DNA of 64,000 nt from Flexilinea sp. (lineage in GTDB: Bacteria; Chloroflexota; Anaerolineae; Anaerolineales; Anaerolineaceae), in contig JAPKMT010000009.1 in assembly GCA_026645735.1 (NCBI GenBank), forward strand, positions 2,662-66,661, read 5' to 3'. The position numbers and the translations under genes were made by a program. The notes below the pieces were generated by a model. It saw nothing but the letters and a program-made list of their open reading frames with translations, did not search any database and was not told the origin of the DNA. Each line of letters opens with the position of its first letter. The first letter of the stretch is position 1. This document shows, one piece after another, positions 45,187 through 60,603 of the stretch.

Positions 45187-45437
45187 AAAATAAATAACCG
45201 TCCCCATAAGGGACGGACAGATTCCGCGGTACCACCCTTGTTTTCATCATTAAGAAAATGATGAACGCTTTCATCCTGATAACGGTGGAATTTTGCCGTC
45301 TCACTTACTTGTATGAAGTTAATCATACGTTCAGATCAAAGCTCCGAAAGGATTTTCTCTCTGCACATCTCTGCCCGGCTCTCACCATTCCGGGTTCGCT
45401 GTAGATGAAATCACAAAGATACTCGTTTTCATCAACG
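45187..45437 (-). ncRNA. T-box riboswitch (Ile specifier) upstream of ileS
   Basis: AGCGA/GGTGAGAGCC stem I boxes, ATC specifier candidate at 45336-45334, AGTA and CCGTTA boxes, AAGGGTGGTACCGCGG T-box (45239-45224), terminator CCGTCCC/GGGACGG plus T-rich tail. Confidence 0.92.
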
Positions 45438-45490
45438 CCAGATTATTGGCATATTTAACCATATTTTTAACAATTGGTCAAATCAGATAC

Positions 45491-45613
45491 AAGCGATTCT
45501 TAGTATGGAAAAAAATAATTGTTGTTGTGGTGTTTTTGTGCGAAGCGCAAAAACACCACAACAACATATTTTCTCTTGAAATTCGAAAAGCATGGCCTTA
45601 TTTCGGATTGATA
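45491..45613 (-). mobile_element. 123-bp MITE copy
   Basis: 21/22-bp arms with GAA loop; TSD ATCAGATAC/ATCAGATGC (8/9). Confidence 0.9.
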
Positions 45614-45690: not shown

Positions 45691-46146
45691 CTACTCAAAT
45701 CTGCTTTTTTCGTAGTTATAGGGGATGCTGGTACCGACAACAACATCCTCAATTTTTTCAACGATCAGCCAATCATCCATGTTATTTTGATGGTCAAATT
45801 GCAGCGGATCGATTCCCTGAACCTCTTTAAATTCGACAAGGCACAGGCATTTTTTGGTCCAGCGCAGTATCTGCTTTTCAGAAAGATTCAGTTTATTTTG
45901 TCGGTCTCGAATAATTTTTTCAGCTTCCTCATCAGAAAGCTTCACAAAATTCTCCACAGCAGCCACAATTGCTTTTGCAGAAATCAAACCGGTCCCTTTT
46001 TTCATAAAAAACAGGATTTCCCCTGCAAAGACTCGCGAATGCGGTATTTTTCTTCCTGCGGCTCCGCGAATGATCATCGTCTTCGATCCCGCAAGAATTT
46101 TATCAAGCTCTTTTTCCTTGTCATCACAATAAACCAAATGCACCAT
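45691..46146 (-). CDS. Conserved hypothetical protein, possibly ASCH/PUA-like
   Basis: ELDKILAGSKTMIIR resembles the ASCH G.KT.T/I.R motif; RBS before ATG 46146. Confidence 0.5.
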   Translation of the reverse strand: MVHLVYCDDKEKELDKILAGSKTMIIRGAAGRKIPHSRVFAGEILFFMKKGTGLISAKAIVAAVENFVKLSDEEAEKIIRDRQNKLNLSEKQILRWTKKCLCLVEFKEVQGIDPLQFDHQNNMDDWLIVEKIEDVVVGTSIPYNYEKSRFE

Positions 46147-46275
46147 CTCAGTTTTTCTCCTAATTATGTCTGATTCGTGTTTAGAAAAATCGCGAGGACT
46201 AATTATTGTTCCATTGTTATTGAACAAATCGCAATAACAATGGAACAACCGGTTCTCTCTCTTTATTGATTAAAC

Positions 46276-47391
46276 TCAGAGACACTGATGTTTTTTCTCG
46301 ATTGGATCATAATCGAAATCAAAATCAAAATGACGTGGTCCAAAAATATCGAGTCCTTTTTGCGTACGCCATTGTTCTGGTGCAGGCAATCCAATAATCG
46401 TGACATTCATTCCTTCCGAAAAGTGAGGGTTGATATTGGGCATGTTGGTGTCATCGTTAAAAATGCAAATTAAATCCGGCGCCATGACATCCACTTTGCC
46501 GTCTTTCCATGAGACAATGTGTTCATTCTTGTACCATACATGGTATTCGCTGCCGCTGAATTCCCCTTCGCCACGAAAATATGCATCACCTACTGTGAAT
46601 CCCTCCACCGTATCATATTGATGTTTTGTCAGCTTACCTTGAAATAACAGGTAACCGTTCATTCCGGTTGCGACTGCCAAACCAGCCGGTTTCCCCTCTT
46701 GCAAAGCTTTACTAAAGATTTTCCCGATTTTCCAGGCATAGGAAATCGCACCCTGGATGACAGCATTTTTCAGCACGCCTGCCCGAGCCGGATGATCCGT
46801 TACACCAATACTGTTTTTGCTGGCAACTGCCAAAGCGCGAACCAGCGCTTCTGCACGAGTTTCATCAACCACTTGAGGAAATACTGCAACATCACCGAAC
46901 TGATTGGCGCATGAAATCGGATAGATTGGCAGATCAAAAATGTTATACGTTGAGTGAATCAATTCAGGAACTGAACGGCCGGCAGGATCTGCATCCATAA
47001 TAAACCGATCCATCAAGGCTGCTGTATAAAAAGCCTCGGCCGTGTTTCCACCGCCTAATTCCGTAGATACGACCCCATAAAAAGATTCGCCGATATAGGC
47101 TTCCATCGCCTTGTATGCCAGAAAACCCAGCGGTTCTTTCAACACCGGCAATCCGGCATAACGCGCCTCGAGCTCCGGTGTTGTTGGAGAAATGCTGCCA
47201 CACACGTAGGGAGTTGCGATCCAGGCATCTTCCGGAACCTCTGAAAAATCTACCATACGGAAGCGTTTCCCCATTTCAAAAGCCTTTTCAATTAATCGGA
47301 TTCCCTTTTCCGGAGATCCACCGCCGCCGGTTCCCAGAATGGTACAACCGTATAAAATTTCTTTAATGTCTTGTATCGATAATTCAATCAT
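46276..47391 (-). CDS. DUF917 family protein (copy 1)
   Basis: LGTGGGGS, ELGGGN, DADPAGRSVPEL, WYKNEH, PDLI. Confidence 0.88.
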   Translation of the reverse strand: MIELSIQDIKEILYGCTILGTGGGGSPEKGIRLIEKAFEMGKRFRMVDFSEVPEDAWIATPYVCGSISPTTPELEARYAGLPVLKEPLGFLAYKAMEAYIGESFYGVVSTELGGGNTAEAFYTAALMDRFIMDADPAGRSVPELIHSTYNIFDLPIYPISCANQFGDVAVFPQVVDETRAEALVRALAVASKNSIGVTDHPARAGVLKNAVIQGAISYAWKIGKIFSKALQEGKPAGLAVATGMNGYLLFQGKLTKHQYDTVEGFTVGDAYFRGEGEFSGSEYHVWYKNEHIVSWKDGKVDVMAPDLICIFNDDTNMPNINPHFSEGMNVTIIGLPAPEQWRTQKGLDIFGPRHFDFDFDYDPIEKKHQCL

Positions 47392-47508
47392 TTGAATAAG
47401 TTCCTTTGTTATTATTATTTTAATGAAACATCCAAAAAATAAACCTGGAAAACATCATAACTGCATTCCTGATAGTATTTTTTTATCATATAAAAAAAAT
47501 AAAAAAGG

Positions 47509-48555
47509 TTATCCCCCGGTCAATTTTTTCGCGATTTCCAGTAAATCCGGATGAACGATTACGCCATTTTCCATGAATAGTTCATCATCCAGCCAAACCG
47601 AAGAATTCAGACACAATCCATCACAATGTGATTTTGCCTGGATTCCATCCGGTGGTGCATCAACCGGGCTGAGATAACCCATACCCCATTCTGTACATCC
47701 CCACACGCGCTCATCTTCCAATACGTTTCCGCACATACGCGCCCCCGGATTAAAGCCATAACATCCATGAGCCAAACGGAACATATTGGGATCATCAAAA
47801 CTTTTCAGCCAGCGAAGCAATTCTTCCGCCTGATTTCCGCCATAAATCTTTTGAATGACACCATTTTCAATATCCAGAAAAACGGGCTCCTTAAGAAATC
47901 CGCAGGGAGGAGAAATTGTCCCGTCGAAAACCAGTTTCCCCTGAATGGAATCAAAATCAGGGAAAAAGCTGATTTGCCCGCTGAGGAAATGAGCTCCCGG
48001 GGTATCCGCCATTCCATCATCGCAGCCAACGATCCGTTCTTTGATCAACCGGAAAGAAAGATCATTCCCAGCAGGAGTGGTTATTCGCATCCGGCTGCTG
48101 TTTTGTGTCATTTCAGTTATCTGATGCAGAAAATCGGAAAGAAGCACAGCGTCAATTCTGCCAATCAGCCGAACCATCATATCGACTGTCATTCCCACCA
48201 GGCAGCTATAGCGCAATTTTTTATTTTCATTCATTGCTTTCTCAAACGGGGTGGAATAGAGCAGCCATTGCTGGTTAAATTCGACCCAGGCATCCGCATA
48301 AAGCAACGCTCCAGTCAATGAATCCACAGGGAGCATACTGTCCGCAGCTTTTCCAACACCCAGCGGTGATACAAGCGTAATGGTCATTGGTTTCGCACCG
48401 GCAGTGTGTGCTGCTGCGGCAACGGCATCGACTACACGCATGTCCGTCTGTGTATCGGCAGTAATGACAATCGTCTCCCCTTTTTTCAGTCGAAACATAT
48501 CATTAATCAGGATGGAAGCTGCTTTTGCCAATTCATATTCAAAATATTCAGTCAT
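47509..48555 (-). CDS. Aminopeptidase T/M29-NicX superfamily protein
   Basis: RITTPAGNDLSF, G.LVFDG, AHGCYGFNP, EDERVWG, SHCDG. Confidence 0.75.
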   Translation of the reverse strand: MTEYFEYELAKAASILINDMFRLKKGETIVITADTQTDMRVVDAVAAAAHTAGAKPMTITLVSPLGVGKAADSMLPVDSLTGALLYADAWVEFNQQWLLYSTPFEKAMNENKKLRYSCLVGMTVDMMVRLIGRIDAVLLSDFLHQITEMTQNSSRMRITTPAGNDLSFRLIKERIVGCDDGMADTPGAHFLSGQISFFPDFDSIQGKLVFDGTISPPCGFLKEPVFLDIENGVIQKIYGGNQAEELLRWLKSFDDPNMFRLAHGCYGFNPGARMCGNVLEDERVWGCTEWGMGYLSPVDAPPDGIQAKSHCDGLCLNSSVWLDDELFMENGVIVHPDLLEIAKKLTGG

Positions 48556-48614
48556 AATCTCTCCAGGTTTTATTTTGAGTTACTTTTCTTCTGTCAAAGG
48601 CTGATGCCGAAATC

Positions 48615-49592
48615 TCAGGGTTTTAATAAATGACATGCAGCTTGATGGTCCTGATCGACAAACACAGCCTTTGGTTCAATTTCTGAACAGACAGGCATTG
48701 CCCTGGGACAGCGCGTATGAAACCGGCATCCAGTTGGTGGATTAATCGCACTGGGTACATTCCCTTCAATCGTACGCAGCTCCGATAGGTTGCGCATCGA
48801 CAAGGACGGTATTGCATTGAATAATGCTTGCGTATATGGATGGACCGGCTCGCTGAAAATCGCTTCTGCTGGACCCTGTTCAACGATTTTCCCTAAATAC
48901 ATCACGATGATACGGTCCGACAAATAATGTACGACACTCAAGTCATGGGAAATCAGGATATACGTCAAACCCAGTTTTTCTTTTAACTGCTGCAAGAGGT
49001 CCAGAATCTGAGCCTGTGACAAAATGTCAATCGAGGAAGTCGGTTCGTCGAGCACCACCAATTTTGGTTCCAGTGCTAACGCTCGGGCAATCGCAATTCG
49101 CTGCCGTTGTCCACCGGAAAACTCATGCGGATATTTATACAGACTGTCCTTGGGCAGCCCTACCATATCCAACAGGTTTTCAACTTTTTCGGATAAAGTC
49201 AGTCCGGATAATTTCTGATGAACACTTAAAGGTTCACCAATGACATTCCGCACCAGCATACGCGGATTCAATGACCAGAAAGGATCCTGAAAAACAATCT
49301 GGATATTTTTCCGTACCTTATCCCGCAGCATTTTTTGTGAAACACGGGTGATGTCCAATCCATCAAAAAAAATTGATCCTTCTGTGGAATCCTCAAGCCG
49401 CAGCAATACATTGACGAGTGTTGTTTTCCCGCATCCGGACTCCCCAACCAACCCGATGGTTTCTCCGGATTGAATCATAAGGTCGATACCATCGACTGCC
49501 TTGACCCATTGTTTTTTGGTTTCAAATAACCGGTTGGATCGGACTGGAAAATATTTTTTCAAGGCTTCAACTTTAACCAGCGGCTGATTCAT
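48615..49592 (-). CDS. Oligopeptide/dipeptide ABC ATP-binding protein (DppF/OppF-like)
   Basis: GESGCGKT, HEFSGGQRQRI, CRFHTRCP. Confidence 0.93.
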   Translation of the reverse strand: MNQPLVKVEALKKYFPVRSNRLFETKKQWVKAVDGIDLMIQSGETIGLVGESGCGKTTLVNVLLRLEDSTEGSIFFDGLDITRVSQKMLRDKVRKNIQIVFQDPFWSLNPRMLVRNVIGEPLSVHQKLSGLTLSEKVENLLDMVGLPKDSLYKYPHEFSGGQRQRIAIARALALEPKLVVLDEPTSSIDILSQAQILDLLQQLKEKLGLTYILISHDLSVVHYLSDRIIVMYLGKIVEQGPAEAIFSEPVHPYTQALFNAIPSLSMRNLSELRTIEGNVPSAINPPTGCRFHTRCPRAMPVCSEIEPKAVFVDQDHQAACHLLKP

Positions 49593-50608
49593 ATCGTCTC
49601 TCCTGCATAAAAACATGCTGCTTTTTGAACAGAGATCGTCTCAGTATTCAGTGATTCTGTTGGTGATCCTGTCGGAAATTCTCTTAACATGGGGACATGG
49701 GCAAAACAATCTTCTTTTCCTATTGTACAGCGAGAATAATAGGGACATCCATTTTCAGCTTCCGGCTTGATTACGGTTTTTGAAAACTTCAATTTCTCTG
49801 ATTTACTGCGTGGAATCGCAGAAATTAATGTCTGTGTATAAGGATGCAGCGGATTCTGAACGACACAATTACTTAATCCTTCTTCCACCAGCTTGCCGCG
49901 ATATAAAATTCCTGCATTTTTGCAGAAAATGTTTACCAAACTCACGTTATTCCCAATGAAGAGGACACTCATCTTGAAGTCACGTTGTAATTCATCAATT
50001 AATTTAAGAATTCCGGCTTGAATCGTAACATCCAGATTTCGCGTTGGTTCGTCAGCGATTAAAAACTCTGCACCGCAGGATAATGCAATCGCGATGATAA
50101 TCCGTTGTCGTTGTCCACCACTCAATTCATGCGGATATTTATCAATTAAATTTGATGTATCCGGCAGCTTGACCAGATCTAACAACTCAAGGGAACGTTT
50201 CAAACAGATTTTACCCTTCAGCCCTTCCTGTCGCGTGATGACGCGTTGAATTTGCTGCCCGACAGTAAAGACCGGATTTAATGTCGACATCGGATCCTGG
50301 AAAATCATGGCCAACCGTTTTCCACGATAAATTTCAGCCATCTGTTTATCTGTCTGTTTTAGAAGATCCACTCCATCGAACAGAATACTTCCATTCAGAA
50401 TCATCCCTGCAGGTTTCGGCAGCAATCCAAGAATCGTCAATGCTAAAACCGTTTTCCCTGCGCCGCTTTCGCCCACCAAACCATAGGTTTCACCGCGATT
50501 GATCGTCAGCCCTTCAATATTGAGGACAGGTTTGATCCCTTCAAATGTCCGGAAACCAACTGAAAGATCTTTGATTTCAAAATAAGACTGTTTTTTCTGA
50601 TCTGTCAT
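49589..50608 (-). CDS. Oligopeptide/dipeptide ABC ATP-binding protein (DppD/OppD-like)
   Basis: GESGAGKT, HELSGGQRQR, HPYT. Confidence 0.93.
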   Translation of the reverse strand: MTDQKKQSYFEIKDLSVGFRTFEGIKPVLNIEGLTINRGETYGLVGESGAGKTVLALTILGLLPKPAGMILNGSILFDGVDLLKQTDKQMAEIYRGKRLAMIFQDPMSTLNPVFTVGQQIQRVITRQEGLKGKICLKRSLELLDLVKLPDTSNLIDKYPHELSGGQRQRIIIAIALSCGAEFLIADEPTRNLDVTIQAGILKLIDELQRDFKMSVLFIGNNVSLVNIFCKNAGILYRGKLVEEGLSNCVVQNPLHPYTQTLISAIPRSKSEKLKFSKTVIKPEAENGCPYYSRCTIGKEDCFAHVPMLREFPTGSPTESLNTETISVQKAACFYAGETI

Positions 50609-50618
50609 ATGGCTCTCC

Positions 50619-51512
50619 TTAAAATTTCCGGGTGCGCGGATCCAAAACTTCACGGATGCCGTCACCGATCAAATTAAAAACCATCACCGTTATAAAGATC
50701 GCAATACCAGGGAACGTGCTGTACCACCAGGCATTCAGGAAATAGGTGCGGCTGGATGAAATTAACAATCCCCATTCAGGAATCGGAGGCTGTGCACCCA
50801 AACCCAAAAAGCTTAAGGATGCAATTGTTAAAATGACTCCGCCAATATCCATGGAAGCCTGCACGATAACCGGTGCCAGCGTATTTGGAAGAATATGTGA
50901 AAAAATAATTTTGGGAAGCGGTGTACCTATCGCGCGCGCTGCCCTGACGAATTGACGTTCCCGGATGGAAACTGCCTGTCCGCGAATAATCCTCGTATAC
51001 CATGGCCACCAGGAAATCGCGATTGCCAAAATGGCATTTTCCAAACTGGGGCCCAGGAACGAAGAGATGGCAATAGCCAGCAATAAAGGCGGGAATGACA
51101 GGAAGATATCTGTCAGGCGCATGATGATTTCATCCGCAATGCCCCCCAGACCTCCTGCAATAGCACCCAGCGGAGCTCCGATTAATAAAGCCAATCCCAC
51201 TGCCAACAGAGCGGTTCGTAAAGAAATTCGTGTTCCAAAAAGAATTCTGGAGAACAGGTCTCGACCCAATTCATCCGTTCCAAAAAAGTATTGACTGGAT
51301 GGGGGTAATAGTTTATCTTTCGGATTCGTATCGCTGATCGCATGTCCCGGATATGGCGCGATGACCGGAGCAAATATCGCAATCAGGATCAGCAGAAGAA
51401 TTATCACCATTGAAATCCGCTGTAATAAATTTCGATTGAGAAGAAAAAATGTAACTTTCAACTCCCGAACAGCAGGCTGGACAGCTCGTAAAAAACTTGT
51501 ACTTTGTGTCAT
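50619..51512 (-). CDS. Peptide ABC permease (DppC-like)
   Basis: FGTDELGRDLFSR, FVRAARAIG, SFLGLG. Confidence 0.93.
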   Translation of the reverse strand: MTQSTSFLRAVQPAVRELKVTFFLLNRNLLQRISMVIILLLILIAIFAPVIAPYPGHAISDTNPKDKLLPPSSQYFFGTDELGRDLFSRILFGTRISLRTALLAVGLALLIGAPLGAIAGGLGGIADEIIMRLTDIFLSFPPLLLAIAISSFLGPSLENAILAIAISWWPWYTRIIRGQAVSIRERQFVRAARAIGTPLPKIIFSHILPNTLAPVIVQASMDIGGVILTIASLSFLGLGAQPPIPEWGLLISSSRTYFLNAWWYSTFPGIAIFITVMVFNLIGDGIREVLDPRTRKF

Positions 51513-51524
51513 TTGCCGCCTCCT

Positions 51525-52535
51525 TCAGGTTCGCACCCGGGGATCCAGTGCAATAATAATATCTGCAGCCAGATTGAGGAGCACGTATGAAAATGCCGAG
51601 AAAATCGTGACACCCATGATAGCCGGGTAATCATTTCCGATCACAGCAGAAGAAATATAACTTCCGATGCCAGGCCAGGTAAAGATGGATTCTGTCAAAA
51701 ATGTATTTACCAATGTATATCCGATCGATAAAGCGACAACAGTTGATGTAGGCCCAATGGAATTTTTCAATGCATACGACCAGAGGACTGTTCTTTCCTT
51801 CAATCCATAGGATCTGGCGGCAGTAATGTAATCTTCATTGAGAATTTCAAGCATGGCAGAACGGGTCATTCTTGCGACGAGTCCGATCGGATACAGAGCA
51901 ATCGTGATACCAGGAAGAACGATGTGCCATAGTGCATCCCATAAAATCGTGAAATTACCGGTAATCAAACAATCAAATATCAAAAAGCCAGTAACTTTCG
52001 GAATATCCATTAATATTTTAATTTCCGTACTCAACTGTCCGCCCATCGGGAAAATATCCAGAATTCGAAAAAAGACCAACTGCAGAATAAGTCCGATCCA
52101 GAAAGTGGGTAAGGAAACAGCTCCAATCGAAAAAAGGCGGCTTAAATGATCGATCAGCTTATCTTTTCGCTTTGCAGAGATGACTCCCAAAGGTATACCA
52201 ATGAACACGGCCGCAATCGTCGATAATAAAACCAGCTCGACTGTAGCAGGCAGGCTTTCCAGTAATTCCTGTGTGATTGGGCGCCGGGTTCGCAGTGAGT
52301 TCCCAAGGTTTCCGCGGAATAAGTCCATCAGATATTTCCCGAATTGAACTACAAGCGGTTTATCCAGCCCCAGTTCAATCGTAGCTTTGGCTATCTGTTC
52401 CGGATTTGCTCTGGGTCCAGCCCATTTTGCAGCAGGATTGGATGGTACCACACGCGCTACAAAAAAAGTAATGAATGCCACTCCCAGGAGGACAATTATT
52501 CCTAACAATACACGTCGGAGAATAAATTTCGTCAT
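51525..52535 (-). CDS. Peptide ABC permease (DppB-like)
   Basis: ARMTRSAMLE, YITAARSYG, ESIFTWPGIG. Confidence 0.93.
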   Translation of the reverse strand: MTKFILRRVLLGIIVLLGVAFITFFVARVVPSNPAAKWAGPRANPEQIAKATIELGLDKPLVVQFGKYLMDLFRGNLGNSLRTRRPITQELLESLPATVELVLLSTIAAVFIGIPLGVISAKRKDKLIDHLSRLFSIGAVSLPTFWIGLILQLVFFRILDIFPMGGQLSTEIKILMDIPKVTGFLIFDCLITGNFTILWDALWHIVLPGITIALYPIGLVARMTRSAMLEILNEDYITAARSYGLKERTVLWSYALKNSIGPTSTVVALSIGYTLVNTFLTESIFTWPGIGSYISSAVIGNDYPAIMGVTIFSAFSYVLLNLAADIIIALDPRVRT

Positions 52536-52564
52536 CCAGGCTCCTTCAATAAAGAAATGAATGA

Positions 52565-52605
52565 TAAAAAGACAGGGGATTCTTAAGCTTTTTCAAGAAT
52601 CCCCT
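52565..52605 (-). terminator. Stem-loop after peptide SBP gene
   Basis: AGGGGATTCTT/AAGAATCCCCT arms with T-rich tail on - strand. Confidence 0.7.
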
Positions 52606-52759
52606 CAATTAACAAAAGATAATCAATCAGAAAACTTGCTGAGTTTGCACAGACTCAAAGCCAATTTTTATGATTATGAGTTCCCTGCAATTTTCAATTT
52701 ATTTTCAGCAACAAAATCCAATGAAAACAAACGAATTCATCTTCATCAGATCAGTTCCA

Positions 52760-54313
52760 TCAGTTCTGAACGGTCAACTCGTGGAAGAATACCACGGTCG
52801 GGTATGCCGGATTGAATTTGAAACCTTGTATGGTCTTATAGGTTACCCAAATATCCTGACGATCATACATGAAAATGGAGGCAGCATCATCCAAAAGCAT
52901 TTTTTGTGCGTCAATGAACATTTGTTTTGCAGCCTCAATATCCGAAGAAGTCATTTCGTTTCCACCGTCAATTAATTGATCAAATTCAGGATTCTTATAA
53001 TAAGCCAGATTGAATAAAGGCTCATCCTCAGAATGGAAAGTGGAATATAAGAATGAATAGGGACTTGGCAGATCCGGCCACCAGTACATCATTAATATGT
53101 CCTGACGCTGGGATGGATCACCCAGCGCCATTTCCCATTGGCTGTCCCACGGCATTCCGCGAATATCAAGATTGACTCCCAGTTTAGCCAATTCGGATTT
53201 ATAAAGTTCTGCAGTGCTTTTCTCAGCTTCATTTCCGGCAGTATATGTCAGAACCAGGCTTAAATCTGATCCGGCACCGGCTTCTTCCAACAGTGCTTTG
53301 GCTTTTTCCAGGTCATATTCATAGCGCGGCAACTGATCGCTCCAACCCCATAAACCAGCTGGAACCATTCCATAAGACTGTTGGCCATAACCTCCGATGA
53401 CTGTATCAATCACTGCCTGATACGGGAACGCATAAGCCAATGCCTGACGGAGTTTCACATTATCCAACGGAGCTTTTTGAGTATTGAACATACCAATCAA
53501 GTTCTGCAGAGAAGGATTGACAGAAACGACCACTTCCGGGTTGTTTTTTAGAACTTCCACATCCGTATATGGCAGCTCCACAGTAATGGCTGCTTCACCG
53601 GTTTCAATCATCTGTCTTCGAGTAGCAGTTTCAGAGACTTTCTTGAAGACGACGATATCAATGCTGTTCTCCTGCCATCCGCCCCAGTAACCGTCAAATT
53701 TCTGAAGAATCACTTCATCGCCCCATTTGGCGCTTCTCAGCATATAAGGTCCGGTACCGCAGCCAGGAGTTTCATCGATCCAGGTATTATCTTCATTCAC
53801 GCATTTGGATGAATAAATGAAAGCCGCATAACCGGTTGCAGCCACCAGATCGAGAGGATTTTTATAAGCAAGTTTAAATTCAACCGTAAGCGGATCCACC
53901 ACATTAATGGATTCAACAGCGGACCAGATGTAGGATGCACCAGCAGCAAGCTGCATCGTACGCTCAACCGAGAATTTTACATCCTCAGCAGTAAAATCAT
54001 CACCATTCTGAAATTTCACGCCGGCACGAAGGTTGAACGTCCAGGTTAATCCATCTTCTGAAACGGTATAAGACTCAGCCAGCATTGGAATAATTTTTTC
54101 TTCGATCGAATCATATCGCAGCAATTGTTCATACATATTATTGTGAACATGAATACCATTCGAAAATTCTATCGCTGGATCCCAGTTTGTCAGCGGTTCA
54201 CTGTTTAATGCATAAACCGCAAAAGTCGGGGTGTCCGCCGCAAAAGCCGAACCAGTAATTATAAAAATACTGATCAGGCTTAATACAATAAATAACTTCA
54301 TTGTTTTTTCCAT
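52760..54313 (-). CDS. Peptide ABC solute-binding protein (family 5)
   Basis: Signal peptide, YEQL, PMLAES, WTFNLR.GVKF, GTGPY. Confidence 0.93.
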   Translation of the reverse strand: MEKTMKLFIVLSLISIFIITGSAFAADTPTFAVYALNSEPLTNWDPAIEFSNGIHVHNNMYEQLLRYDSIEEKIIPMLAESYTVSEDGLTWTFNLRAGVKFQNGDDFTAEDVKFSVERTMQLAAGASYIWSAVESINVVDPLTVEFKLAYKNPLDLVAATGYAAFIYSSKCVNEDNTWIDETPGCGTGPYMLRSAKWGDEVILQKFDGYWGGWQENSIDIVVFKKVSETATRRQMIETGEAAITVELPYTDVEVLKNNPEVVVSVNPSLQNLIGMFNTQKAPLDNVKLRQALAYAFPYQAVIDTVIGGYGQQSYGMVPAGLWGWSDQLPRYEYDLEKAKALLEEAGAGSDLSLVLTYTAGNEAEKSTAELYKSELAKLGVNLDIRGMPWDSQWEMALGDPSQRQDILMMYWWPDLPSPYSFLYSTFHSEDEPLFNLAYYKNPEFDQLIDGGNEMTSSDIEAAKQMFIDAQKMLLDDAASIFMYDRQDIWVTYKTIQGFKFNPAYPTVVFFHELTVQN

Positions 54314-54618
54314 TTTTTCCCTCTTTAGTATATTTGATGAATGATACGATTTATTGAAAATTCTGGAATAAATCATAGCTTTATATTTTGTATTGATATA
54401 AACTAGTATAACAAAAAGGTATTACTGTTTTTTCATTGAGTTGAATATCTATAGGAAAATGATTATAACAAATTAAAACTATTCAATTTCAGAATCTGGT
54501 ATATTTTTATTAATTTTATTGGTTTATCCATTTCGAGATAACCGAACATGGAAAAATGATAACAAAGACGAATAATACAGCTATTTTTTCTGTTTTTCCA
54601 GGATTTTTTAATAAATAA

Positions 54619-54741
54619 CAGTAATTCGAAATTTGGAAAAACCTTTTGAGAAAAAAGAGAAAATTAGTTGTTATGTTGTTTTTGCGCAGAGCGCAAAAAC
54701 AACATAACAATAAGTAATCTCTCTCATATTTCGAATTGCTG
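54619..54741 (+). mobile_element. 123-bp MITE copy (best preserved)
   Basis: TIRs CAGTAATTCGAAATTTG / CATATTTCGAATTGCTG; perfect TSD AATAAATAA; perfect 20-bp arms with AGA loop. Confidence 0.95.
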
Positions 54742-54856
54742 AATAAATAATGAATCCAGTCGAAAAATTGTTATGATCATCCTTTTTACGCTATGGATCC
54801 GGGATGATCCAGACAGGGTTCTGTATAAAAATATATTGAAGGATTATAGGTTTTAA

Positions 54857-56383
54857 ATGAAAATCAGAATCATTGCCCCGATCACTTCTTCTGTGTACGC
54901 TTCCAGCGCACTTCCCGTTCTGCAAAAGTTTGTTAATGAAAATACACAGATCAGTCTTGTCAGTTTGTCGAAGGGACCCGCTTCTCTTGAATCGATTTAT
55001 GAAGAAACGCTTGCCGCCCCTCAGGTCGTACAACGAGTGTTGGAAGCCGAACGGGATGGGATGGATGCAGTTGTCATTGATTGCATGAACGATCCGGGTT
55101 TAGAAGCAGCCAGAGAAATGACCAGAATTCCGGTAATTGGTGCAGCTCAGTCTGCGATGACACTGGCAGCAACGCTGTGTGGCAAATTTTCCATAATCGC
55201 AACCGCTAAACGAGACCGCTTCCCTTTCGAACTTCTCGTTAAACGATATGGATTGACAGAGAAATTTGCATCCATTCGATCTGTTGAGATACCTGTCCTT
55301 GATTTATATAAACTCAGCGAAAAACTGCTTTCCTCATTAATTACCGAATCCATTCATGCGATACAGGAAGATGGCGCCAGCGGAATTATTTTCGGATGTA
55401 CCAGTATGCGTGAGATGAAACAGGATTTGAAAGACGCGCTTCAACAGCACGGATTGAATCCTCTGATCATCGATCCATCGTCTGTTGCTTTAAAATGGGC
55501 TGAAATGCTGGCAGGATTAAATCGCACACACAGTCAAAAAACCTATCCGTATGGCAAAAGTTTTCTGCTTCCGGAACATAAAACCCTGAACGCAGAATTA
55601 AACCAATCCAGGAATGGCACACACCATCGTTCGGTTAAAATTTGCGTGATGGTACCCGTCGTTCAGGGATATCGGGAAGACAGGTGGCTTGAGGACACGC
55701 GAAAAGGATATGCCGCTTATGCACGTCCTTCGACGCAAATTATGGTGGAGGCAATCCAAACCGGACCAGCAACCATTGAAAATCAGTATCTAAAAGCCAT
55801 GTGCATCCCGGAATTGCTCCGAATCGCCAAAAATGCAGAGAAGAATGGCGCTGATGCACTGATTATCGACTGCATGAGTGATCCGGGTTTTGATGCAGTC
55901 CGTGAAGCAGTTACCATCCCTGTAATCGGGCAGACACACATTTGCAGCTTTCTGGCATCAGCGCTTTCACACCGCTTCAGTATTTTGGGAACCCGCAAAG
56001 ATTATGGACATAAATTTGCCAACCAGGTTGCAGAATATGGAATCAGTGCCAAACTGGCATCCGTACGAACGATTGGCTTGACCGTTGAGGAAGTGGAAAC
56101 TAATCCGGACAGGTTATTGAAAGCGCTGCTGGATGCAGGTGAACAAGCAGTTATTCAAGATGGTGCGCATTCCTTAATTCCAGGCTGCACCGGAATGATC
56201 GGTCTTGCGGATACGCTACAGGAAAGGCTTTCTGAGCGTGGAATCCATGTGCCCGTACTGGAACCGCCTGCGGTTGCTGTCAAATTTGCGGAATTATTGA
56301 CCGATTTGCATCTCTGTCACAGTAAAATTACATGGCCGCTTCCTCCTGAAAAAGAAATCAGCGGTTATCCGGAAATCTTATAA
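54857..56383 (+). CDS. Tandem two-domain Asp/Glu/hydantoin racemase family protein
   Basis: Two repeats each with IDCMxDPG and GCTxM catalytic Cys motifs. Confidence 0.9.
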   Translation: MKIRIIAPITSSVYASSALPVLQKFVNENTQISLVSLSKGPASLESIYEETLAAPQVVQRVLEAERDGMDAVVIDCMNDPGLEAAREMTRIPVIGAAQSAMTLAATLCGKFSIIATAKRDRFPFELLVKRYGLTEKFASIRSVEIPVLDLYKLSEKLLSSLITESIHAIQEDGASGIIFGCTSMREMKQDLKDALQQHGLNPLIIDPSSVALKWAEMLAGLNRTHSQKTYPYGKSFLLPEHKTLNAELNQSRNGTHHRSVKICVMVPVVQGYREDRWLEDTRKGYAAYARPSTQIMVEAIQTGPATIENQYLKAMCIPELLRIAKNAEKNGADALIIDCMSDPGFDAVREAVTIPVIGQTHICSFLASALSHRFSILGTRKDYGHKFANQVAEYGISAKLASVRTIGLTVEEVETNPDRLLKALLDAGEQAVIQDGAHSLIPGCTGMIGLADTLQERLSERGIHVPVLEPPAVAVKFAELLTDLHLCHSKITWPLPPEKEISGYPEIL

Positions 56384-56401
56384 AGGTCAAGGAAAGAAAA
56401 G

Positions 56402-56914
56402 ATGGAAACACTTGAAGCAATCCGAACTCGACGCAGCATCCGATCCTATACTTCGGAACCATTAAAAGACGCTGACCTCCAAAAAATCATTGAAGCGGCT
56501 GTTTCCGCTCCCAGCGGCGGTAACAGTCAAAGCTGGTTGTTCTTCAGCGTGTGCGAACCGAAACGTATCGCCGGAATGCGCGCAATTTGTCCCGGGATCA
56601 TCGGAATCCCTTCCGGAATTATCATATTATGTCTCGATTTCCGTGGACAGAAAAAGGAAGTGCTTCCAATCATAAAGTATTTGGATATTGGAGCCGCAAT
56701 GCAGAATATACTACTGGCTGCACATGATCTTGGCTTGGGTGGCTGTGCCATCGGTTCCTTTCATGTGGAAGGCGTAAAAGAATTTCTAAATATACCTGAA
56801 CATGTAGAGCCAATTCTGTTGACCGTTTTGGGCAAACCAAAAAGTCTTCCTTCCGCTCCAAAGAAAAAGCCTTTACAAGAAATCTATTTTCAGGAAAGTT
56901 ATAAAGAAAAATAA
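56402..56914 (+). CDS. Nitroreductase family protein
   Basis: RRSIRSY, APSGGNSQSW, AAMQNILLAAHDLGLGGC. Confidence 0.92.
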   Translation: METLEAIRTRRSIRSYTSEPLKDADLQKIIEAAVSAPSGGNSQSWLFFSVCEPKRIAGMRAICPGIIGIPSGIIILCLDFRGQKKEVLPIIKYLDIGAAMQNILLAAHDLGLGGCAIGSFHVEGVKEFLNIPEHVEPILLTVLGKPKSLPSAPKKKPLQEIYFQESYKEK

Positions 56915-56915
56915 A

Positions 56916-57203
56916 ATGGAATCGAAAGAATTGAAAAACGAATTGTTATTGCTGGTTTCTTTCATGATTACAAGCGCGCGCGGACTCTATGATGAGCCCG
57001 AAAATTATGGGACTTTTCGGTTAATCGATGCGGCTGGACGATTATTGGCCATCATGGAATCAGCAGGAATGTCTGATGTTTTTATCAGCGCACTCAGACA
57101 GCAAGTTGATGAAGAACGGGAATCCTCGATGGATGATGATGCCCAAAAAATGAACCTGGACAGGATGGTGTTAAAAATAGCCAGAGAACTGCAGAATCGT
57201 TGA
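56916..57203 (+). CDS. DUF6092-like small protein
   Basis: SARGLYDEPENYGTFRLIDAA pattern; family name from memory. Confidence 0.6.
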   Translation: MESKELKNELLLLVSFMITSARGLYDEPENYGTFRLIDAAGRLLAIMESAGMSDVFISALRQQVDEERESSMDDDAQKMNLDRMVLKIARELQNR

Positions 57204-57286
57204 TGGATCAAATCGAAGGGAAAATGAATCAGGGTCCTTCGATCACCATCCAAAAATAAATTGGATGATAAAAAAATGGAGAAGAT

Positions 57287-58429
57287 ATGTCAAAAACAAT
57301 ACTGAAAACAAAGCAAGATTGTGTCGATTTTCTTACTGGATTAAAACTGCTCGGAACAGGAGGAGGCGGTTCGATAACGACTGGAATGGAATTGCTCACA
57401 AAAGCACTTGATGAAGGATTGACGCTTTCATGGATCGATGCCGCAGAATTACCAGAAGACACGTTCACTTGTACTGCGTTCAGCTCCGGATCAATCTCTG
57501 CCGGTCGTCCGGAAAGTGAATCGGATATTACTGAATTAGGGAAAAAATTGGGAATCGAGAATAAATTTGGTTTGCGGGCGGCTGAAATGGCGGTGAAGGA
57601 GTTGGAGAAGTACTCCGGTGTCAAAGTAGGTGCTTTGGTTCCTGTAGAGTTAGGTGCTGCCAATGCACCAGCTCCAATGGTAATTGCAGCCCGTCTGGGA
57701 ATGAGTCTGATCGACGGTGATTACAGCGGGAGAGCAGTTCCACAGGAAATGCAGACGACCTATTTTCTGAAAGATTACAGCATTACGCCGGCAGTAGTGA
57801 CAGACTGGTGGGGGGATATCGTTGTCATCAAAGAAGGCTCGGCGGCCATGGTTGAAAGGTTAGGAAAAATGATGGCCATCGCCAGCTATGGCGCTGTATA
57901 TTTTGCATCGGTCCTCTTATCGGCCAAAGATACAAGAGAAACAATTGTTCCCGGCACTTTATCATTGAGCTATGAACTCGGAAAAGCCGTCCACAAAGCG
58001 GTTAAGTCCGCACAGAACCCTGTAACAAAAATTGTTGAACAACTGAATGGATGGAAATTATTCTCAGGAGTTGTTACTGGCAAAGAATGGGAGGATAAAG
58101 AGGGTGCCATGGCGGGAACAACCCACATCCGGGGAACAGGTGTTGATGAAGGTCACACGATGGATATCTGGTTCCTCAACGAAAACCACGTGGCATGGCT
58201 GGACGGGAAACCCTATGTTTTCAGCCCGGATATTATCATAAACGTCAATCCGAATACTGGTGAAGGATATTCCAATACGGAACTGAAAGAGGGTGATCCG
58301 GTCGCAGTCGTTGGCTGCAAAATCAATCCGGTTTTCCGTTCTGAAAAAGCAATTTCTTACTTTGGACCGCGATTTTGGGGCTTTGATTTTGACTACAAGC
58401 CGATAGAAGAAATGATGGCTAGGCGTTAA
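57287..58429 (+). CDS. DUF917 family protein (copy 2)
   Basis: LGTGGGGS, ELGAAN, DGDYSGRAVP, WFLNENH, PDII. Confidence 0.88.
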   Translation: MSKTILKTKQDCVDFLTGLKLLGTGGGGSITTGMELLTKALDEGLTLSWIDAAELPEDTFTCTAFSSGSISAGRPESESDITELGKKLGIENKFGLRAAEMAVKELEKYSGVKVGALVPVELGAANAPAPMVIAARLGMSLIDGDYSGRAVPQEMQTTYFLKDYSITPAVVTDWWGDIVVIKEGSAAMVERLGKMMAIASYGAVYFASVLLSAKDTRETIVPGTLSLSYELGKAVHKAVKSAQNPVTKIVEQLNGWKLFSGVVTGKEWEDKEGAMAGTTHIRGTGVDEGHTMDIWFLNENHVAWLDGKPYVFSPDIIINVNPNTGEGYSNTELKEGDPVAVVGCKINPVFRSEKAISYFGPRFWGFDFDYKPIEEMMARR

Positions 58430-58716: not shown

Positions 58717-59043
58717 ATGAATATTCAATACAAAAAAGGGGTTCTGGAACTTTGCGTTTTAGCCATTTTATATCGCCATGACTGTTATGGATATGACATA
58801 TCAGAATTTATTTCAAAACGGATCGATATCTCAGATGGAACGGTCTATCCCATTTTGCGAAAATTGAAGAGTGATGGAATGGTAACAACTTATTTATCGG
58901 AAGACAGCGGTGGTCCACCCAGAAAATATTACACGCTTACAGATCTCGGGGAAAAAGAATTTTTACAGTCAAAGGAAGAATGGAGCTCTTTTATCAGAGT
59001 CGTCGAAGAAATACTTACGGAGGGTTCGCATGAAAAAAATTGA
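58717..59043 (+). CDS. PadR family transcriptional regulator
   Basis: KKGVLELCVL, YGYDI, GTVYPILRKL, PPRKYY. Confidence 0.95.
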   Translation: MNIQYKKGVLELCVLAILYRHDCYGYDISEFISKRIDISDGTVYPILRKLKSDGMVTTYLSEDSGGPPRKYYTLTDLGEKEFLQSKEEWSSFIRVVEEILTEGSHEKN

Positions 59044-60601: not shown

Positions 60602-60603
60602 AG

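What the first reader, a model, noticed from the sequence alone, without database searches (positions are those of the whole stretch)
46276..58429. Divergent catabolic system for an unknown hydantoin/cyclic-amide-like substrate
Left arm: peptide ABC (5 genes), NicX/M29-like protein, DUF917. Right arm: double racemase, nitroreductase, DUF6092, second DUF917. DUF917 usually accompanies hydantoinase/oxoprolinase genes, and I recall a member being assigned as an S-methyl-thiohydantoin desulfurase. Here there is no hydantoinase and no regulator, but two DUF917 paralogues and two racemase sites. This suggests uptake and stereo-independent breakdown of a (thio)hydantoin, cyclic peptide or ergothioneine-related compound by an undescribed route.
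Basis: inference. Interest (0 to 1): 0.7.

Follow-up and report, generated by a model that had tools for sequence, protein, structure and literature searches.

The report
Synthase-less cyclodipeptide-oxidase-type import and breakdown cluster
This is a real, conserved 11-gene locus of an anaerobic Chloroflexota bacterium that imports and probably breaks down small ring-shaped peptide-like compounds (most likely cyclic dipeptides); its "nitroreductase plus DUF6092" pair is a homologue of the cyclodipeptide oxidase AlbA/AlbB, a cluster type noted in 2024 whose substrate is still unknown.

Summary
All eleven genes lie at the stated coordinates.

The nitroreductase and DUF6092 genes are homologues of AlbA and AlbB, the two subunits of cyclodipeptide oxidase (CDO). 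Their best solved-structure matches are 8uc3_A (E=1e-32) and 9exv_C (E=9e-15).

The two arms belong together:
- The same gene set recurs in Anaerolineae relatives at 84% down to about 40% identity.
- One relative has it as a single co-directional operon.
- In many relatives the racemase gene sits between the two permease genes.

Near fused racemases, DUF917 occurs in 13/13 loci, the ABC importer in 12/13, the CDO pair in 11/13 and the NicX-like gene in 8/13.

Both racemase halves keep their two catalytic cysteines. Both DUF917 paralogues keep all family-invariant residues. The NicX-like protein keeps the 2-His-1-Asp metal site.

The ergothioneine/thiohydantoin idea is not supported. Both DUF917 proteins score 58-66 bits against cut-offs of 440-450.

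This cluster type ("non-CDPS CDO-like") was described in Nat Commun 2024 (PMC11055893) without a function. This scan found it earlier on other DNA (e1-5102994, e1-5110783, e1-3150082).

My best reading, about 45%, is uptake, epimerisation and ring-opening of diketopiperazine-like cyclic amides. It is a new member of a known but untested kind.

The parts
52760..54376 (-). Family-5 (Dpp/Opp/Nik-type) solute-binding protein with an N-terminal signal/anchor. The likely true start is M22 or M26 (about 54313/54301).
   Evidence: PF00496, 313 bits. Best PDB matches are 5u4o, AapF, HbpA, GsiB and DppA. The equivalent of DppA Asp408 is kept (D435, 35/38 orthologues). The equivalent of the Arg355 carboxylate clamp is absent (T379).
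52574..52605 (-). Terminator-like or attenuating hairpin between the SBP gene and the first permease gene.
   Evidence: 13-bp stem, 5 GC pairs, T-run. Consensus scan only.
51525..52535 (-). ABC permease, DppB/OppB-like.
   Evidence: PF19300 + PF00528. 79-97% identical in orthologous loci.
50619..51512 (-). ABC permease, DppC/OppC-like.
   Evidence: PF12911 + PF00528.
49589..50665 (-). ABC ATPase, DppD/OppD-like. The likely true start is M19, about 50611.
   Evidence: PF00005 + PF08352. The Flexilinea orthologue is 339 aa.
48615..49616 (-). ABC ATPase, DppF/OppF-like.
   Evidence: PF00005 + PF08352.
47509..48555 (-). NicX-like / M29-fold metalloprotein. Probably a hydrolase here rather than a dioxygenase.
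   Evidence: PDB 7cn3 NicX E=4e-16. H263/H310/D312 align with the NicX Fe triad H265/H318/D320 and are invariant in 21/21 orthologues. It shares the LEDE(R/K)V motif with a second M29-like family (hhalign 99.4%). The gene lies directly beside a DUF917 gene in 13/21 loci.
46276..47391 (-). DUF917 paralogue a (S-Me-THD-like N and C domains).
   Evidence: PF06032 + PF20906. It keeps every residue that is invariant in 100 family members. It is 31% identical to paralogue b.
54377..54856 (.). AT-rich divergent intergenic (promoter) region. It holds one copy of a palindromic repeat element at 54668-54710.
   Evidence: GC 0.33. Palindrome found; three copies in the window. No Rfam family matches.
54857..56383 (+). 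Fused double hydantoin/allantoin-racemase-like protein with two complete two-cysteine active sites.
   Evidence: PF01177, 253 bits, two stretches. C76/C181 align with the Cys residues that are Ser in the 3qvk variant of allantoin racemase 3qvj. C339/C444 align with the Cys residues of 2eq5 and OpaE. All four Cys are invariant in 18 homologues.
56402..56914 (+). CDOA: AlbA-like nitroreductase-fold flavoprotein subunit.
   Evidence: 8uc3_A (albonoursin synthase AlbA) E=1.4e-32, the best PDB hit. R10, R14, N41, C115 and S119 are kept. The covalent-FMN Cys115 of AlbA is Asp95 here, and is never Cys in 39 orthologues.
56916..57203 (+). CDOB: AlbB-like small helical subunit (DUF6092).
   Evidence: PF19585, 96 bits. 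AlbB 9exv_C E=9e-15 and 8uc3_D E=5e-11. The E27-P28-x-x-Y31-x-x-x-R35 motif and M72 are kept. The gene starts 1 nt after the CDOA stop.
57287..58429 (+). DUF917 paralogue b. This is the type found in nearly all related loci.
   Evidence: PF06032 + PF20906. AF2 model pLDDT 92.5. The only structural match is 2o3i, of unknown function.

Best explanation
The locus is one functional unit: an import-and-breakdown system for a small, uncharged, peptide-derived ring compound with epimerisable alpha-carbons. The substrate is most likely a 2,5-diketopiperazine (cyclic dipeptide, including D-containing and dehydro forms).

Shown:
- A Dpp/Opp-type ABC importer with five components.
- A fused protein with two intact two-Cys racemase sites of the hydantoin/allantoin-racemase type.
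- A two-subunit flavoenzyme homologous to the cyclodipeptide oxidase AlbA/AlbB. It lacks the covalent-flavin cysteine.
- Two intact DUF917 paralogues.
- A NicX/M29-fold protein with a conserved 2-His-1-Asp metal site.
- All of these are co-inherited across Anaerolineae and beyond.

Inferred steps:
1. The binding protein captures the ring compound and the ABC system imports it.
2. The double racemase interconverts the stereoisomers at the ring's alpha-carbons, so that all diastereomers become usable.
3. DUF917 enzymes add water to a ring carbon and open or convert the ring. Their only characterised relatives hydrolytically replace the C2 sulfur of (S-methyl)thiohydantoins.
4. The AlbAB-like flavoenzyme interconverts saturated and alpha,beta-dehydro forms. 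In this strictly anaerobic lineage it cannot use O2, so it probably works as a reductase of dehydro forms or with another electron acceptor.
5. The NicX/M29-like metalloenzyme, usually encoded directly beside a DUF917 gene, hydrolyses the linear product to amino acids.
For: Assignment of the CDO pair:
- Best solved-structure hits are AlbA and AlbB.
- The AlbB active-site/interface motif EPxxYxxxR is kept in 35-37/37 orthologues, and the FMN-binding Arg/Asn/Ser of AlbA are kept.

Unity of the two arms:
- Identical content and layout in Flexilinea flocculi, Leptolinea and others.
- All 11 genes form one co-directional operon in L004.
- The racemase gene lies directly next to the first permease gene in 27 cases, in many loci between the two permease genes.
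- In loci with at least 5 kb on both sides of a fused racemase: DUF917 13/13, ABC 12/13, CDOA+B 11/13, NicX 8/13.

Catalytic competence:
- Four invariant Cys in the racemase.
- The DUF917 invariant residues E, N, D, D, R, N, E, D are kept in both paralogues.
- The NicX-like triad is invariant.

Peptide-like ring rather than an ordinary peptide or a hydantoin:
- The SBP keeps the DppA Asp408 equivalent but lacks the carboxylate-clamp Arg.
- The accompanying hydrolases are M29-fold and M20 peptidase-type.
- A minimal self-contained operon of importer + racemase + DUF917, with unrelated flanks and no decarbamoylase, exists in L045. This fits a product such as a dipeptide that general metabolism can take over.
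- Tandem arrays of 4-5 racemase genes (L025, L028) and up to 5 DUF917 genes per locus (L025, L051) suggest a substrate family with many side-chain or stereo variants.
- OpaE, a member of the same racemase family, epimerises a residue inside a nonribosomal peptide derivative (oxepinamide pathway) (PMC12661438).
- CDOs of CDPS-associated clusters are highly specific for the 2,5-diketopiperazine scaffold (PMC11055893).

Anaerobic setting:
- Neighbours in related loci include AFOR, ferredoxins, Rnf and FlpD.
- F. flocculi is a strict anaerobe (my own knowledge, not tested here).
Against: - No enzyme of the cluster has been assayed, and the substrate is wholly inferred.
- The racemase domains are closest to allantoin/hydantoin racemases, not to a known diketopiperazine epimerase.
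- The only characterised DUF917 enzymes act on five-membered (thio)hydantoin rings.
- A HyuA-like hydantoinase/oxoprolinase subunit and PucR-type regulators accompany related clusters. This points towards hydantoin-like or lactam rings.
- An alpha,beta-dehydrogenation has no obvious role in catabolism and no obvious acceptor in an anaerobe.
- My co-occurrence set was retrieved with the racemase as query, so the racemase's presence is by construction.
- The conserved Asp of the SBP could equally mean that a free amino group is bound.
Confidence: 0.45

Rival explanations
1. The cluster is a utilisation system for 5-substituted hydantoins or other cyclic ureides (allantoin-like or dihydropyrimidine-like). 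The racemase racemises C5. DUF917 is the ring-opening 'hydantoinase'. The NicX/M29-like (or M20) enzyme is the decarbamoylase. The CDO-like enzyme reduces or oxidises the ring substituent. This is the reading offered by the first reader and by Andreas & Giessen.
For: - The racemase domains are most similar to allantoin/hydantoin racemases 3qvj, 5lfd and 2eq5.
- Named DUF917 relatives act on thiohydantoins.
- HyuA-like genes occur in 17 related loci, PucR regulators in 4 and M20 enzymes in 3.
- PMC11055893 proposes hydantoin- or allantoin-like substrates.
Against: - The DUF917 fold matches no hydantoinase. Its only PDB match is 2o3i, of unknown function.
- The window has no dihydropyrimidinase-type or HyuA/HyuB hydantoinase and no recognised carbamoylase.
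- The minimal operons have no candidate decarbamoylase.
- The importer is of the peptide/opine/nickel type, not a nucleobase or hydantoin (NCS1) type.
- Natural 5-alkyl hydantoins are rare (my own knowledge).
Confidence: 0.2
2. The cluster salvages linear peptides that contain D-amino acids or are otherwise unusual, for example cell-wall-derived peptides. The racemase domains act as peptide epimerases. DUF917 and the NicX-like protein act as unusual peptidases.
For: - A Dpp-type importer whose SBP keeps the Asp that binds the peptide alpha-amino group in DppA.
- The second-best SBP structure hit is a peptide/nickel-family binding protein, AapF.
- M29 and M20 peptidase-fold partners.
Against: - No two-Cys hydantoin-racemase-type enzyme is known to act on linear peptides (my own knowledge).
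- The AlbAB-like flavoenzyme has no role in this scheme.
- The SBP lacks the carboxylate clamp.
Confidence: 0.1
3. The cluster is a biosynthetic or tailoring cluster for a modified cyclic peptide or hydantoin natural product, and the ABC system serves export or re-import.
For: Characterised CDOs are tailoring enzymes of diketopiperazine antibiotics. PMC11055893 lists secondary metabolism as a possibility.
Against: - No cyclodipeptide synthase, NRPS or other scaffold-forming enzyme lies in the locus or in any of about 80 related loci.
- An SBP-dependent ABC system is an importer.
- The CDOA lacks the covalent-flavin Cys that is typical of CDPS-linked CDOs.
- The gene content is hydrolase-rich.
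Confidence: 0.05
4. The cluster is an ergothioneine / (S-methyl)thiohydantoin degradation route, with the DUF917 proteins as desulfurases.
For: The Pfam family name (S-Me-THD-like). Weak NCBIfam hits to both desulfurase models.
Against: - Scores of 41-66 bits against equivalog cut-offs of 440-450.
- No ergothionase, thiourocanate hydratase or hydantoinase in the locus or in related loci.
Confidence: 0.02
5. The two arms are unrelated neighbours: an ordinary peptide transporter beside unrelated enzymes.
For: The arms are transcribed divergently and no shared regulator is visible.
Against: - Gene content is conserved through rearrangements.
- L004 carries all genes in a single operon.
- The racemase gene sits inside the transporter operon in many loci.
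Confidence: 0.02

Closest known systems
Non-CDPS 'CDO-like' gene clusters (Andreas & Giessen, Nat Commun 2024, PMC11055893)
   Same: - An AlbA-like and an AlbB-like gene in tandem, with no cyclodipeptide synthase.
- Accompanied by hydantoin-racemase-like (PF01177) and DUF917 (PF06032) genes, a di/oligopeptide ABC transporter and peptidase-fold genes.
- The CDOA lacks the covalent-FMN cysteine.
- Found in anaerobes and in Chloroflexota.
   Different: The paper gives only enrichment statistics and no function. Features specific to this locus:
- The racemase is a fused two-domain protein, seen only in Chloroflexota among the kept loci, mostly Anaerolineae.
- There are two distinct DUF917 paralogues.
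- The peptidase-fold partner carries a NicX-type 2-His-1-Asp site.
- In many relatives the racemase gene is embedded in the permease operon.
Cyclodipeptide oxidase AlbA/AlbB of Streptomyces noursei (PDB 8uc3) and the related CDO 9exv
   Same: - The two-subunit architecture.
- Best sequence matches of both subunits.
- Conserved FMN-phosphate arginines, N41, C115xxG118S119, and the AlbB EPxxYxxxR motif and Met.
   Different: - AlbA Cys115 (covalent FMN) is Asp95 here.
- AlbA Ser54 is Gly40 here.
- AlbB Gly79 is Asp73 here.
- There is no synthase.
- The host is a strict anaerobe, so an O2-dependent oxidase reaction is unlikely.
Classical hydantoin-utilisation (Hyu) systems and allantoin racemase HpxA/AllR
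   Same: A two-Cys racemase of the same family. The overall logic of racemise, open the ring, then hydrolyse.
   Different: There is no dihydropyrimidinase-type or HyuA/HyuB hydantoinase, no recognised carbamoylase, and an ABC importer instead of an NCS1 importer. The DUF917 fold is unrelated to hydantoinases.
Thiohydantoin / S-methyl-thiohydantoin desulfurases (NCBIfam NF058529, NF058532) of ergothioneine catabolism
   Same: The same Pfam two-domain family (PF06032 + PF20906).
   Different: Scores lie far below the equivalog cut-offs. The pathway partners are absent.
NicX 2,5-dihydroxypyridine 5,6-dioxygenase (PDB 7cn3) and M29 aminopeptidases
   Same: The M29-type fold and the NicX Fe-binding His/His/Asp positions.
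   Different: The context is anaerobic and has no nic genes. The protein retains the LEDE(R/K)V motif shared with the second M29-like family in related loci. It is almost always encoded next to a DUF917 gene.
OpaE (PDB 9qbx), fungal Asp/Glu-racemase-family epimerase
   Same: The same family. It is a precedent for epimerising an alpha-carbon inside a nonribosomal peptide derivative.
   Different: It is a single-domain fungal biosynthetic enzyme and only distantly related (E=2e-9).

Membership tests
Cyclodipeptide oxidase (AlbA/AlbB, CDOA/CDOB) | A nitroreductase-fold CDOA gene immediately followed by a small helical CDOB (DUF6092) gene. | tested here: met
   CDOA is 56402-56914 and CDOB is 56916-57203, 1 nt apart. 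The two genes are adjacent in 33/39 related loci.
Cyclodipeptide oxidase (AlbA/AlbB, CDOA/CDOB) | Closest solved relatives are AlbA and AlbB. | tested here: met
   8uc3_A E=1.4e-32, 9exv_A 1.1e-28, 9exv_C 9e-15, 8uc3_D 5e-11.
Cyclodipeptide oxidase (AlbA/AlbB, CDOA/CDOB) | Conserved interface/active-site residues: AlbB E33, P34, Y37, R41, M78, G79; AlbA R24, R28, N55, S139. | tested here: met
   CDOB has E27, P28, Y31, R35 and M72; only G79 differs (Asp73). CDOA has R10, R14, N41 and S119.
Cyclodipeptide oxidase (AlbA/AlbB, CDOA/CDOB) | Covalent 8alpha-S-cysteinyl FMN (AlbA Cys115) and Ser54 above the flavin. | tested here: not met
   Asp95 and Gly40 stand at these positions. No Cys occurs there in 39 orthologues. 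The paper says only CDPS-linked CDOAs have Cys115.
Cyclodipeptide oxidase (AlbA/AlbB, CDOA/CDOB) | Association with a cyclodipeptide synthase. | tested here: not met
   None lies in the locus or in the related loci examined.
Cyclodipeptide oxidase (AlbA/AlbB, CDOA/CDOB) | Filament formation and O2-dependent alpha,beta-dehydrogenation of diketopiperazines. | not testable with these tools
   Needs protein biochemistry and electron microscopy.
Hydantoin/allantoin racemase (PF01177) | The family fold. | tested here: met
   PF01177 scores 253 bits with two stretches. PDB matches are 3qvj, 5lfd and 2eq5.
Hydantoin/allantoin racemase (PF01177) | A pair of catalytic cysteines in each domain. | tested here: met
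   C76/C181 align with the Cys residues that are Ser in the 3qvk variant of 3qvj. C339/C444 align with the Cys residues of 2eq5 and OpaE. All four are invariant in 18 homologues.
Hydantoin/allantoin racemase (PF01177) | Racemisation of 5-substituted hydantoins or allantoin. | not testable with these tools
   Needs an enzyme assay.
Thiohydantoin / S-methyl-thiohydantoin desulfurase (DUF917 equivalogs) | A score above the NCBIfam equivalog cut-off. | tested here: not met
   Scores of 65.8/58.1 and 41.4/57.6 bits against cut-offs of 440/450.
Thiohydantoin / S-methyl-thiohydantoin desulfurase (DUF917 equivalogs) | Neighbourhood with ergothionase, thiourocanate hydratase or hydantoinase. | tested here: not met
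   Absent from 42-62 kb of the window and from the related loci.
DUF917 / S-Me-THD-like superfamily (PF06032 + PF20906) | Both Pfam domains, and the family-invariant residues. | tested here: met
   Both domains score far above the cut-offs. GxGGGG, E, N, DxD, R, NE and D are kept in both paralogues. The model matches 2o3i with TM 0.78.
NicX 2,5-dihydroxypyridine dioxygenase | Homology, and the Fe(II) triad His265/His318/Asp320. | tested here: met
   7cn3 E=4e-16. H263, H310 and D312 are aligned and invariant in 21/21 orthologues.
NicX 2,5-dihydroxypyridine dioxygenase | An aerobic nicotinate-degradation context (nic genes, O2 as co-substrate). | tested here: not met
   No nic genes lie nearby. 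The lineage and neighbouring genes are anaerobic: AFOR, ferredoxins and Rnf in related loci.
Dpp/Opp-type peptide ABC importer | A family-5 SBP, two permeases, and two ATPases with the oligo_HPY C-terminal domain. | tested here: met
Dpp/Opp-type peptide ABC importer | DppA-type clamps for the peptide termini: Asp408 for the amino group and Arg355 for the carboxylate. | tested here: inconclusive
   The Asp equivalent is kept (D435, 35/38). The Arg equivalent is absent (T379; Ala or Thr in orthologues). The loop alignment there is uncertain.
Classical hydantoin utilisation (Hyu) operon | A hydantoinase (dihydropyrimidinase-type or HyuA/HyuB) and an N-carbamoyl-amino-acid amidohydrolase. | tested here: not met
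   Neither is in the window locus. A HyuA-like gene occurs only in a different sub-branch of related loci.

The most novel reading that the evidence does not exclude
The cluster encodes the still-unassigned catabolic route for 2,5-diketopiperazines in anaerobes. DUF917 would be the missing ring-opening hydrolase of cyclic dipeptides. The fused double racemase would epimerise both alpha-carbons of the ring. The AlbAB-like flavoenzyme would work without O2, for example as a dehydro-diketopiperazine reductase.
Probability: 0.25. Interest if true: 0.75.

Novelty: new member of a known kind. Interest (0 to 1): 0.45.

Why it matters
Cyclic dipeptides are abundant. They arise by spontaneous cyclisation of peptides and as microbial signals and antibiotics. 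Searches of the held paper library found no described gene set for their breakdown.

DUF917 is a sizeable family. Its only assigned activities are two desulfurases.

CDO-like enzymes without a synthase make up 88% of the CDO family and have no known reaction, particularly in anaerobes where O2 cannot re-oxidise the flavin (PMC11055893).

This locus offers a compact and experimentally tractable version of the system:
- 11 genes.
- A cultured close relative, Flexilinea flocculi TC1, has the identical cluster.
- Minimal three-function operons in relatives isolate the core chemistry: importer + racemase + DUF917.

A defined substrate would annotate several hundred gene clusters. It could also supply new biocatalysts, such as diketopiperazine or hydantoin epimerases, ring-opening hydrolases and O2-independent ene-reductases or dehydrogenases.

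Tried and rejected
1. Ergothioneine/thiohydantoin reading. Rejected on the NCBIfam scores and the missing pathway partners.
2. 'DUF917 is a hydantoinase by structure', as stated in PMC11055893. The AF2 model (pLDDT 92.5) matches only 2o3i in the PDB and no hydantoinase fold. The fold gives no support for this.
3. Riboswitch or known RNA in the divergent intergenic region. There is none; the only real Rfam hit is the IleRS T-box.
4. PadR at 58717 as the cluster's regulator. Rejected: PadR-HAAS-SDR-SDR is an insertion absent from Flexilinea, where the glyoxalase gene follows DUF917b directly.
5. The 185-aa ORF at 45691-46248 as a cluster member. It has no Pfam or NCBIfam hit and is conserved only in Flexilinea. 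Treated as a flank.
6. Literature searches for DUF6092, thiohydantoin desulfurase, and diketopiperazine catabolic operons. No relevant paper turned up beyond PMC11055893 and the OpaE papers.
7. Genome-wide checks (a second CDO cluster, a cyclodipeptide synthase, a carbamoylase elsewhere) and a look for expression data.
8. Sequence look-up of earlier scan notes with CDOA found nothing. The word look-up found three earlier reports of the same cluster type.

Full report
**1. What is there**

Minus strand:
- a family-5 solute-binding protein, 52760-54376
- two permeases and two ATPases with the oligo_HPY tail, 48615-52535
- a 348-aa protein whose only solved relative is the dioxygenase NicX (7cn3, E=4e-16); its orthologues carry Pfam PF26233 'NicX'
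- a DUF917 protein, 46276-47391

Plus strand, after a 480-bp AT-rich gap:
- a 508-aa protein with two Asp/Glu/hydantoin-racemase domains
- a 170-aa nitroreductase-fold protein
- a 95-aa DUF6092 protein that starts one base after the nitroreductase stop
- a second DUF917 protein, 57287-58429

The locus contains no regulator.

**2.

The nitroreductase and DUF6092 proteins are homologues of AlbA and AlbB, the two subunits of cyclodipeptide oxidase (CDO).
- Their best matches among all solved structures are 8uc3_A (E=1.4e-32), 9exv_A, 9exv_C (E=9e-15) and 8uc3_D.
- The AlbB residues that line the flavin site (E33, P34, Y37, R41, M78) are present as E27, P28, Y31, R35 and M72. Only G79 differs (Asp73).
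- AlbA R24, R28, N55, C135 and S139 are present as R10, R14, N41, C115 and S119.
- AlbA Cys115, which binds FMN covalently, is Asp95 here. Ser54 is Gly40.
- In 39 orthologues from related loci the Cys115 position is never Cys, and the AlbB motif is kept in 35-37 of 37.

This matches what Andreas & Giessen reported (PMC11055893):
- 88% of CDO gene pairs lie outside cyclodipeptide-synthase clusters.
- Only CDOAs encoded in CDPS gene clusters carry the conserved flavin-binding cysteine (Cys115).
- They are enriched for hydantoin-racemase-like, DUF917 and AroM genes, di/oligopeptide ABC transporters and peptidases.
- They occur in anaerobes.
- Their function is unknown.

The locus is therefore a member of a cluster type that has been noted but never tested.

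**3. Organism and conservation**

The closest named relative is Flexilinea flocculi TC1 (Anaerolineae, Chloroflexota).
- Its double racemase is 84% identical.
- The whole cluster is syntenic, including the IleRS and glyoxalase flanks.
- The PadR-HAAS pair and two SDR genes at 58717-61413 are absent there, so they are an insertion and not part of the cluster.

The same divergent layout is found in Leptolinea and other MAGs at 52-61% identity (L008, L010, L011). At 47% identity all eleven genes form one co-directional operon (L004). At about 44% the racemase gene sits between the two permease genes (L005, L006 and others).

A scan of one genome per GTDB species with a racemase profile returned 79 distinct loci. 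In loci with at least 5 kb on both sides the co-occurrence is as follows:

| Racemase type | DUF917 | ABC importer | CDOA (+CDOB) | NicX-like | second M29-like | HyuA-like | AFOR |
|---|---|---|---|---|---|---|---|
| fused (n=13) | 13/13 | 12/13 | 11/13 | 8/13 | 1/13 | 0/13 | 1/13 |
| single (n=20) | 19/20 | 15-16/20 | 11/20 | 6/20 | 12/20 | 8/20 | 4/20 |

The presence of the racemase is by construction, because it was the query. Everything else is a result.

Further points:
- Fused racemases were seen only in Chloroflexota, mostly Anaerolineae.
- The wider gene set also occurs in Dehalococcoidia, Caldilineae, Actinomycetota and one proteobacterial MAG.
- Some loci hold tandem arrays of 4-5 racemase genes and up to five DUF917 genes (L025, L028, L030, L051).
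- The NicX-like gene lies directly beside a DUF917 gene in 13 of 21 cases.
- The racemase gene lies directly next to the first permease gene (same strand, gap under 300 nt) in 27 cases.
- A minimal operon, SBP-permease-racemase-permease-ATPase-ATPase-DUF917, stands alone between unrelated genes in L045.

**4. Are the enzymes intact?**

Racemase:
- C76 and C181 align with the two cysteines of allantoin racemase 3qvj. These are the residues replaced by serine in 3qvk/3qvl.
- C339 and C444 align with the cysteines of hydantoin racemase 2eq5 and of OpaE.
- All four are invariant in 18 homologues.

DUF917:
- In 100 sequences from these loci the invariant polar residues are E121, N126, D143, D145, R149, N298, E299 and D315 (paralogue b numbering), plus a GxGGGG loop.
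- Both window paralogues keep all of them, although they are only 31% identical to each other.
- An AlphaFold model of paralogue b is confident (pLDDT 92.5).
- In the PDB it matches only the uncharacterised CV_3147 (2o3i, TM 0.78). Nothing else scores better than E=0.04. The fold gives no support for calling it a hydantoinase.

NicX-like protein:
- H263, H310 and D312 align with the Fe(II) ligands of NicX and are invariant in 21/21 orthologues.
- It also shares a LEDE(R/K)V motif with a second M29-like family found in related loci (hhalign 99.4%). That family reaches the Pfam Peptidase_M29 model.
- In an anaerobe a hydrolytic role is more plausible than a dioxygenase role. This is an inference.

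Binding protein:
- The residue aligned with DppA Asp408, which binds the peptide amino group, is conserved (D435, 35/38; motif YWWPD).
- The residue aligned with the carboxylate-clamping Arg355 is Thr or Ala.
- This is weak evidence that the ligand is not an ordinary dipeptide.

**5. What it probably does**

I read the locus as an import-and-breakdown system for small peptide-derived rings, most likely 2,5-diketopiperazines.

Arguments for diketopiperazines:
- CDOs of CDPS-associated clusters are highly specific for that scaffold (PMC11055893).
- The importer and the accessory hydrolases are of peptide type.
- OpaE shows that this racemase family can epimerise a residue within a nonribosomal peptide derivative (PMC12661438).
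- The minimal importer + racemase + DUF917 operons imply that the DUF917 product can enter general metabolism. That is true of a dipeptide but not of an N-carbamoyl amino acid.
- Arrays of racemase and DUF917 paralogues fit a substrate family with many side-chain and stereo variants.
- A two-site racemase fits a ring with two stereocentres.

Arguments for the main rival, hydantoin-like or other cyclic ureides (about 20%):
- The racemase domains are nearest to allantoin/hydantoin racemases.
- The only named DUF917 enzymes act on thiohydantoins.
- HyuA-like and PucR genes occur in a sister branch.

The role of the flavoenzyme is the weakest step. Without O2 it may reduce dehydro forms or use another acceptor. 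AFOR, ferredoxin and FMN-reductase genes lie nearby in several relatives.

The ergothioneine idea fails the NCBIfam equivalog test (41-66 bits against 440-450). A biosynthetic role is unlikely, because there is no synthase and the ABC system is a binding-protein-dependent importer.

**6. Novelty and score**

The cluster type is in the literature (2024) without a function. This scan has already reported it three times on other DNA: e1-5102994, e1-5110783 and e1-3150082. Those are AI notes and I do not count them as independent evidence.

What this locus adds:
- the Chloroflexota-restricted fused double racemase
- the pairing of two DUF917 subtypes with a NicX-type metalloprotein
- the racemase-in-permease-operon arrangement
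- the minimal operons
- a cultured strain with the identical cluster

I rate it a new member of a known but uncharacterised kind, with interest 0.45.

**7. Limits**

- I therefore could not search the rest of the genome for synthases or carbamoylases, nor test co-expression.
- All functional steps beyond homology are inferences.

Noticed in passing
window 45206-45444 (-): A T-box leader (RF00230, 112 bits; gathering score 93) lies upstream of the type-2 IleRS gene. The mechanical ORF 42003-45326 overlaps it, so the true IleRS start is further downstream. The arrangement is ordinary.
   Followed up: partly
window 36875-36895, 45533-45553, 54679-54699 (cores); element about 100-170 nt: Three copies of a palindromic repeat element with core TTTTTGYGC-NNN-GCRCAAAAA and 20-bp stems. 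The flanks are conserved and include ATTTCGAATT. None is expected by chance. One copy sits in the divergent promoter region of the cluster. Another lies between the IleRS leader and the 185-aa ORF.
   Followed up: partly
window 58717-61413: A PadR regulator, a HAAS-domain membrane protein and two short-chain dehydrogenases are inserted between DUF917b and the glyoxalase gene, relative to Flexilinea flocculi. The insert looks like a self-contained module.
   Followed up: partly
window 45691-46248 (-): A 185-aa ORF (probably shorter; 151 aa in Flexilinea) with no Pfam or NCBIfam match. It is conserved at 82% only in Flexilinea flocculi. In Leptolinea (L008) a second M29-like gene occupies this position.
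   Followed up: partly
L025, L028, L030, L040, L051 (related loci): Tandem arrays of up to 4-5 single-domain racemase genes, of both the N-domain and C-domain types, and up to 5 DUF917 paralogues in one locus. This suggests lineage-specific expansion for a family of substrates.
   Followed up: partly
L016, L051, L053, L058-L061, L067, L070, L073, L081 and others: A 512-aa HyuA-like protein (Hydant_A_N + Hydantoinase_A), with no HyuB seen, is encoded directly upstream of a divergent DUF917 gene and a single racemase gene. This hints that DUF917 may partner an ATP-dependent lactam-activating subunit in that branch.
   Followed up: no
L002, L025, L030, L040, L043, L072, L074, L085: Aldehyde:ferredoxin oxidoreductase lies next to the cluster in these loci. 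Some of them also carry a 4Fe-4S ferredoxin (L002, L072, L074, L085) or an FMN_red flavoprotein (L030, L040, L072, L074, L085). These are possible electron partners or downstream steps such as 2-oxo-acid or aldehyde handling.
   Followed up: no
L010 7869-9612 and 9941-11525: In this MAG the SBP and the double-racemase genes each appear split into two ORFs. These are frameshifts or assembly errors.
   Followed up: no
one search hits P0167, P0220, P0236, P0245: Proteins of 282-324 aa carry the CDOB domain at their C-terminus. They are presumably the CDOA-CDOB fusions mentioned in PMC11055893. Two proteins of about 190 aa carry two CDOB stretches.
   Followed up: no
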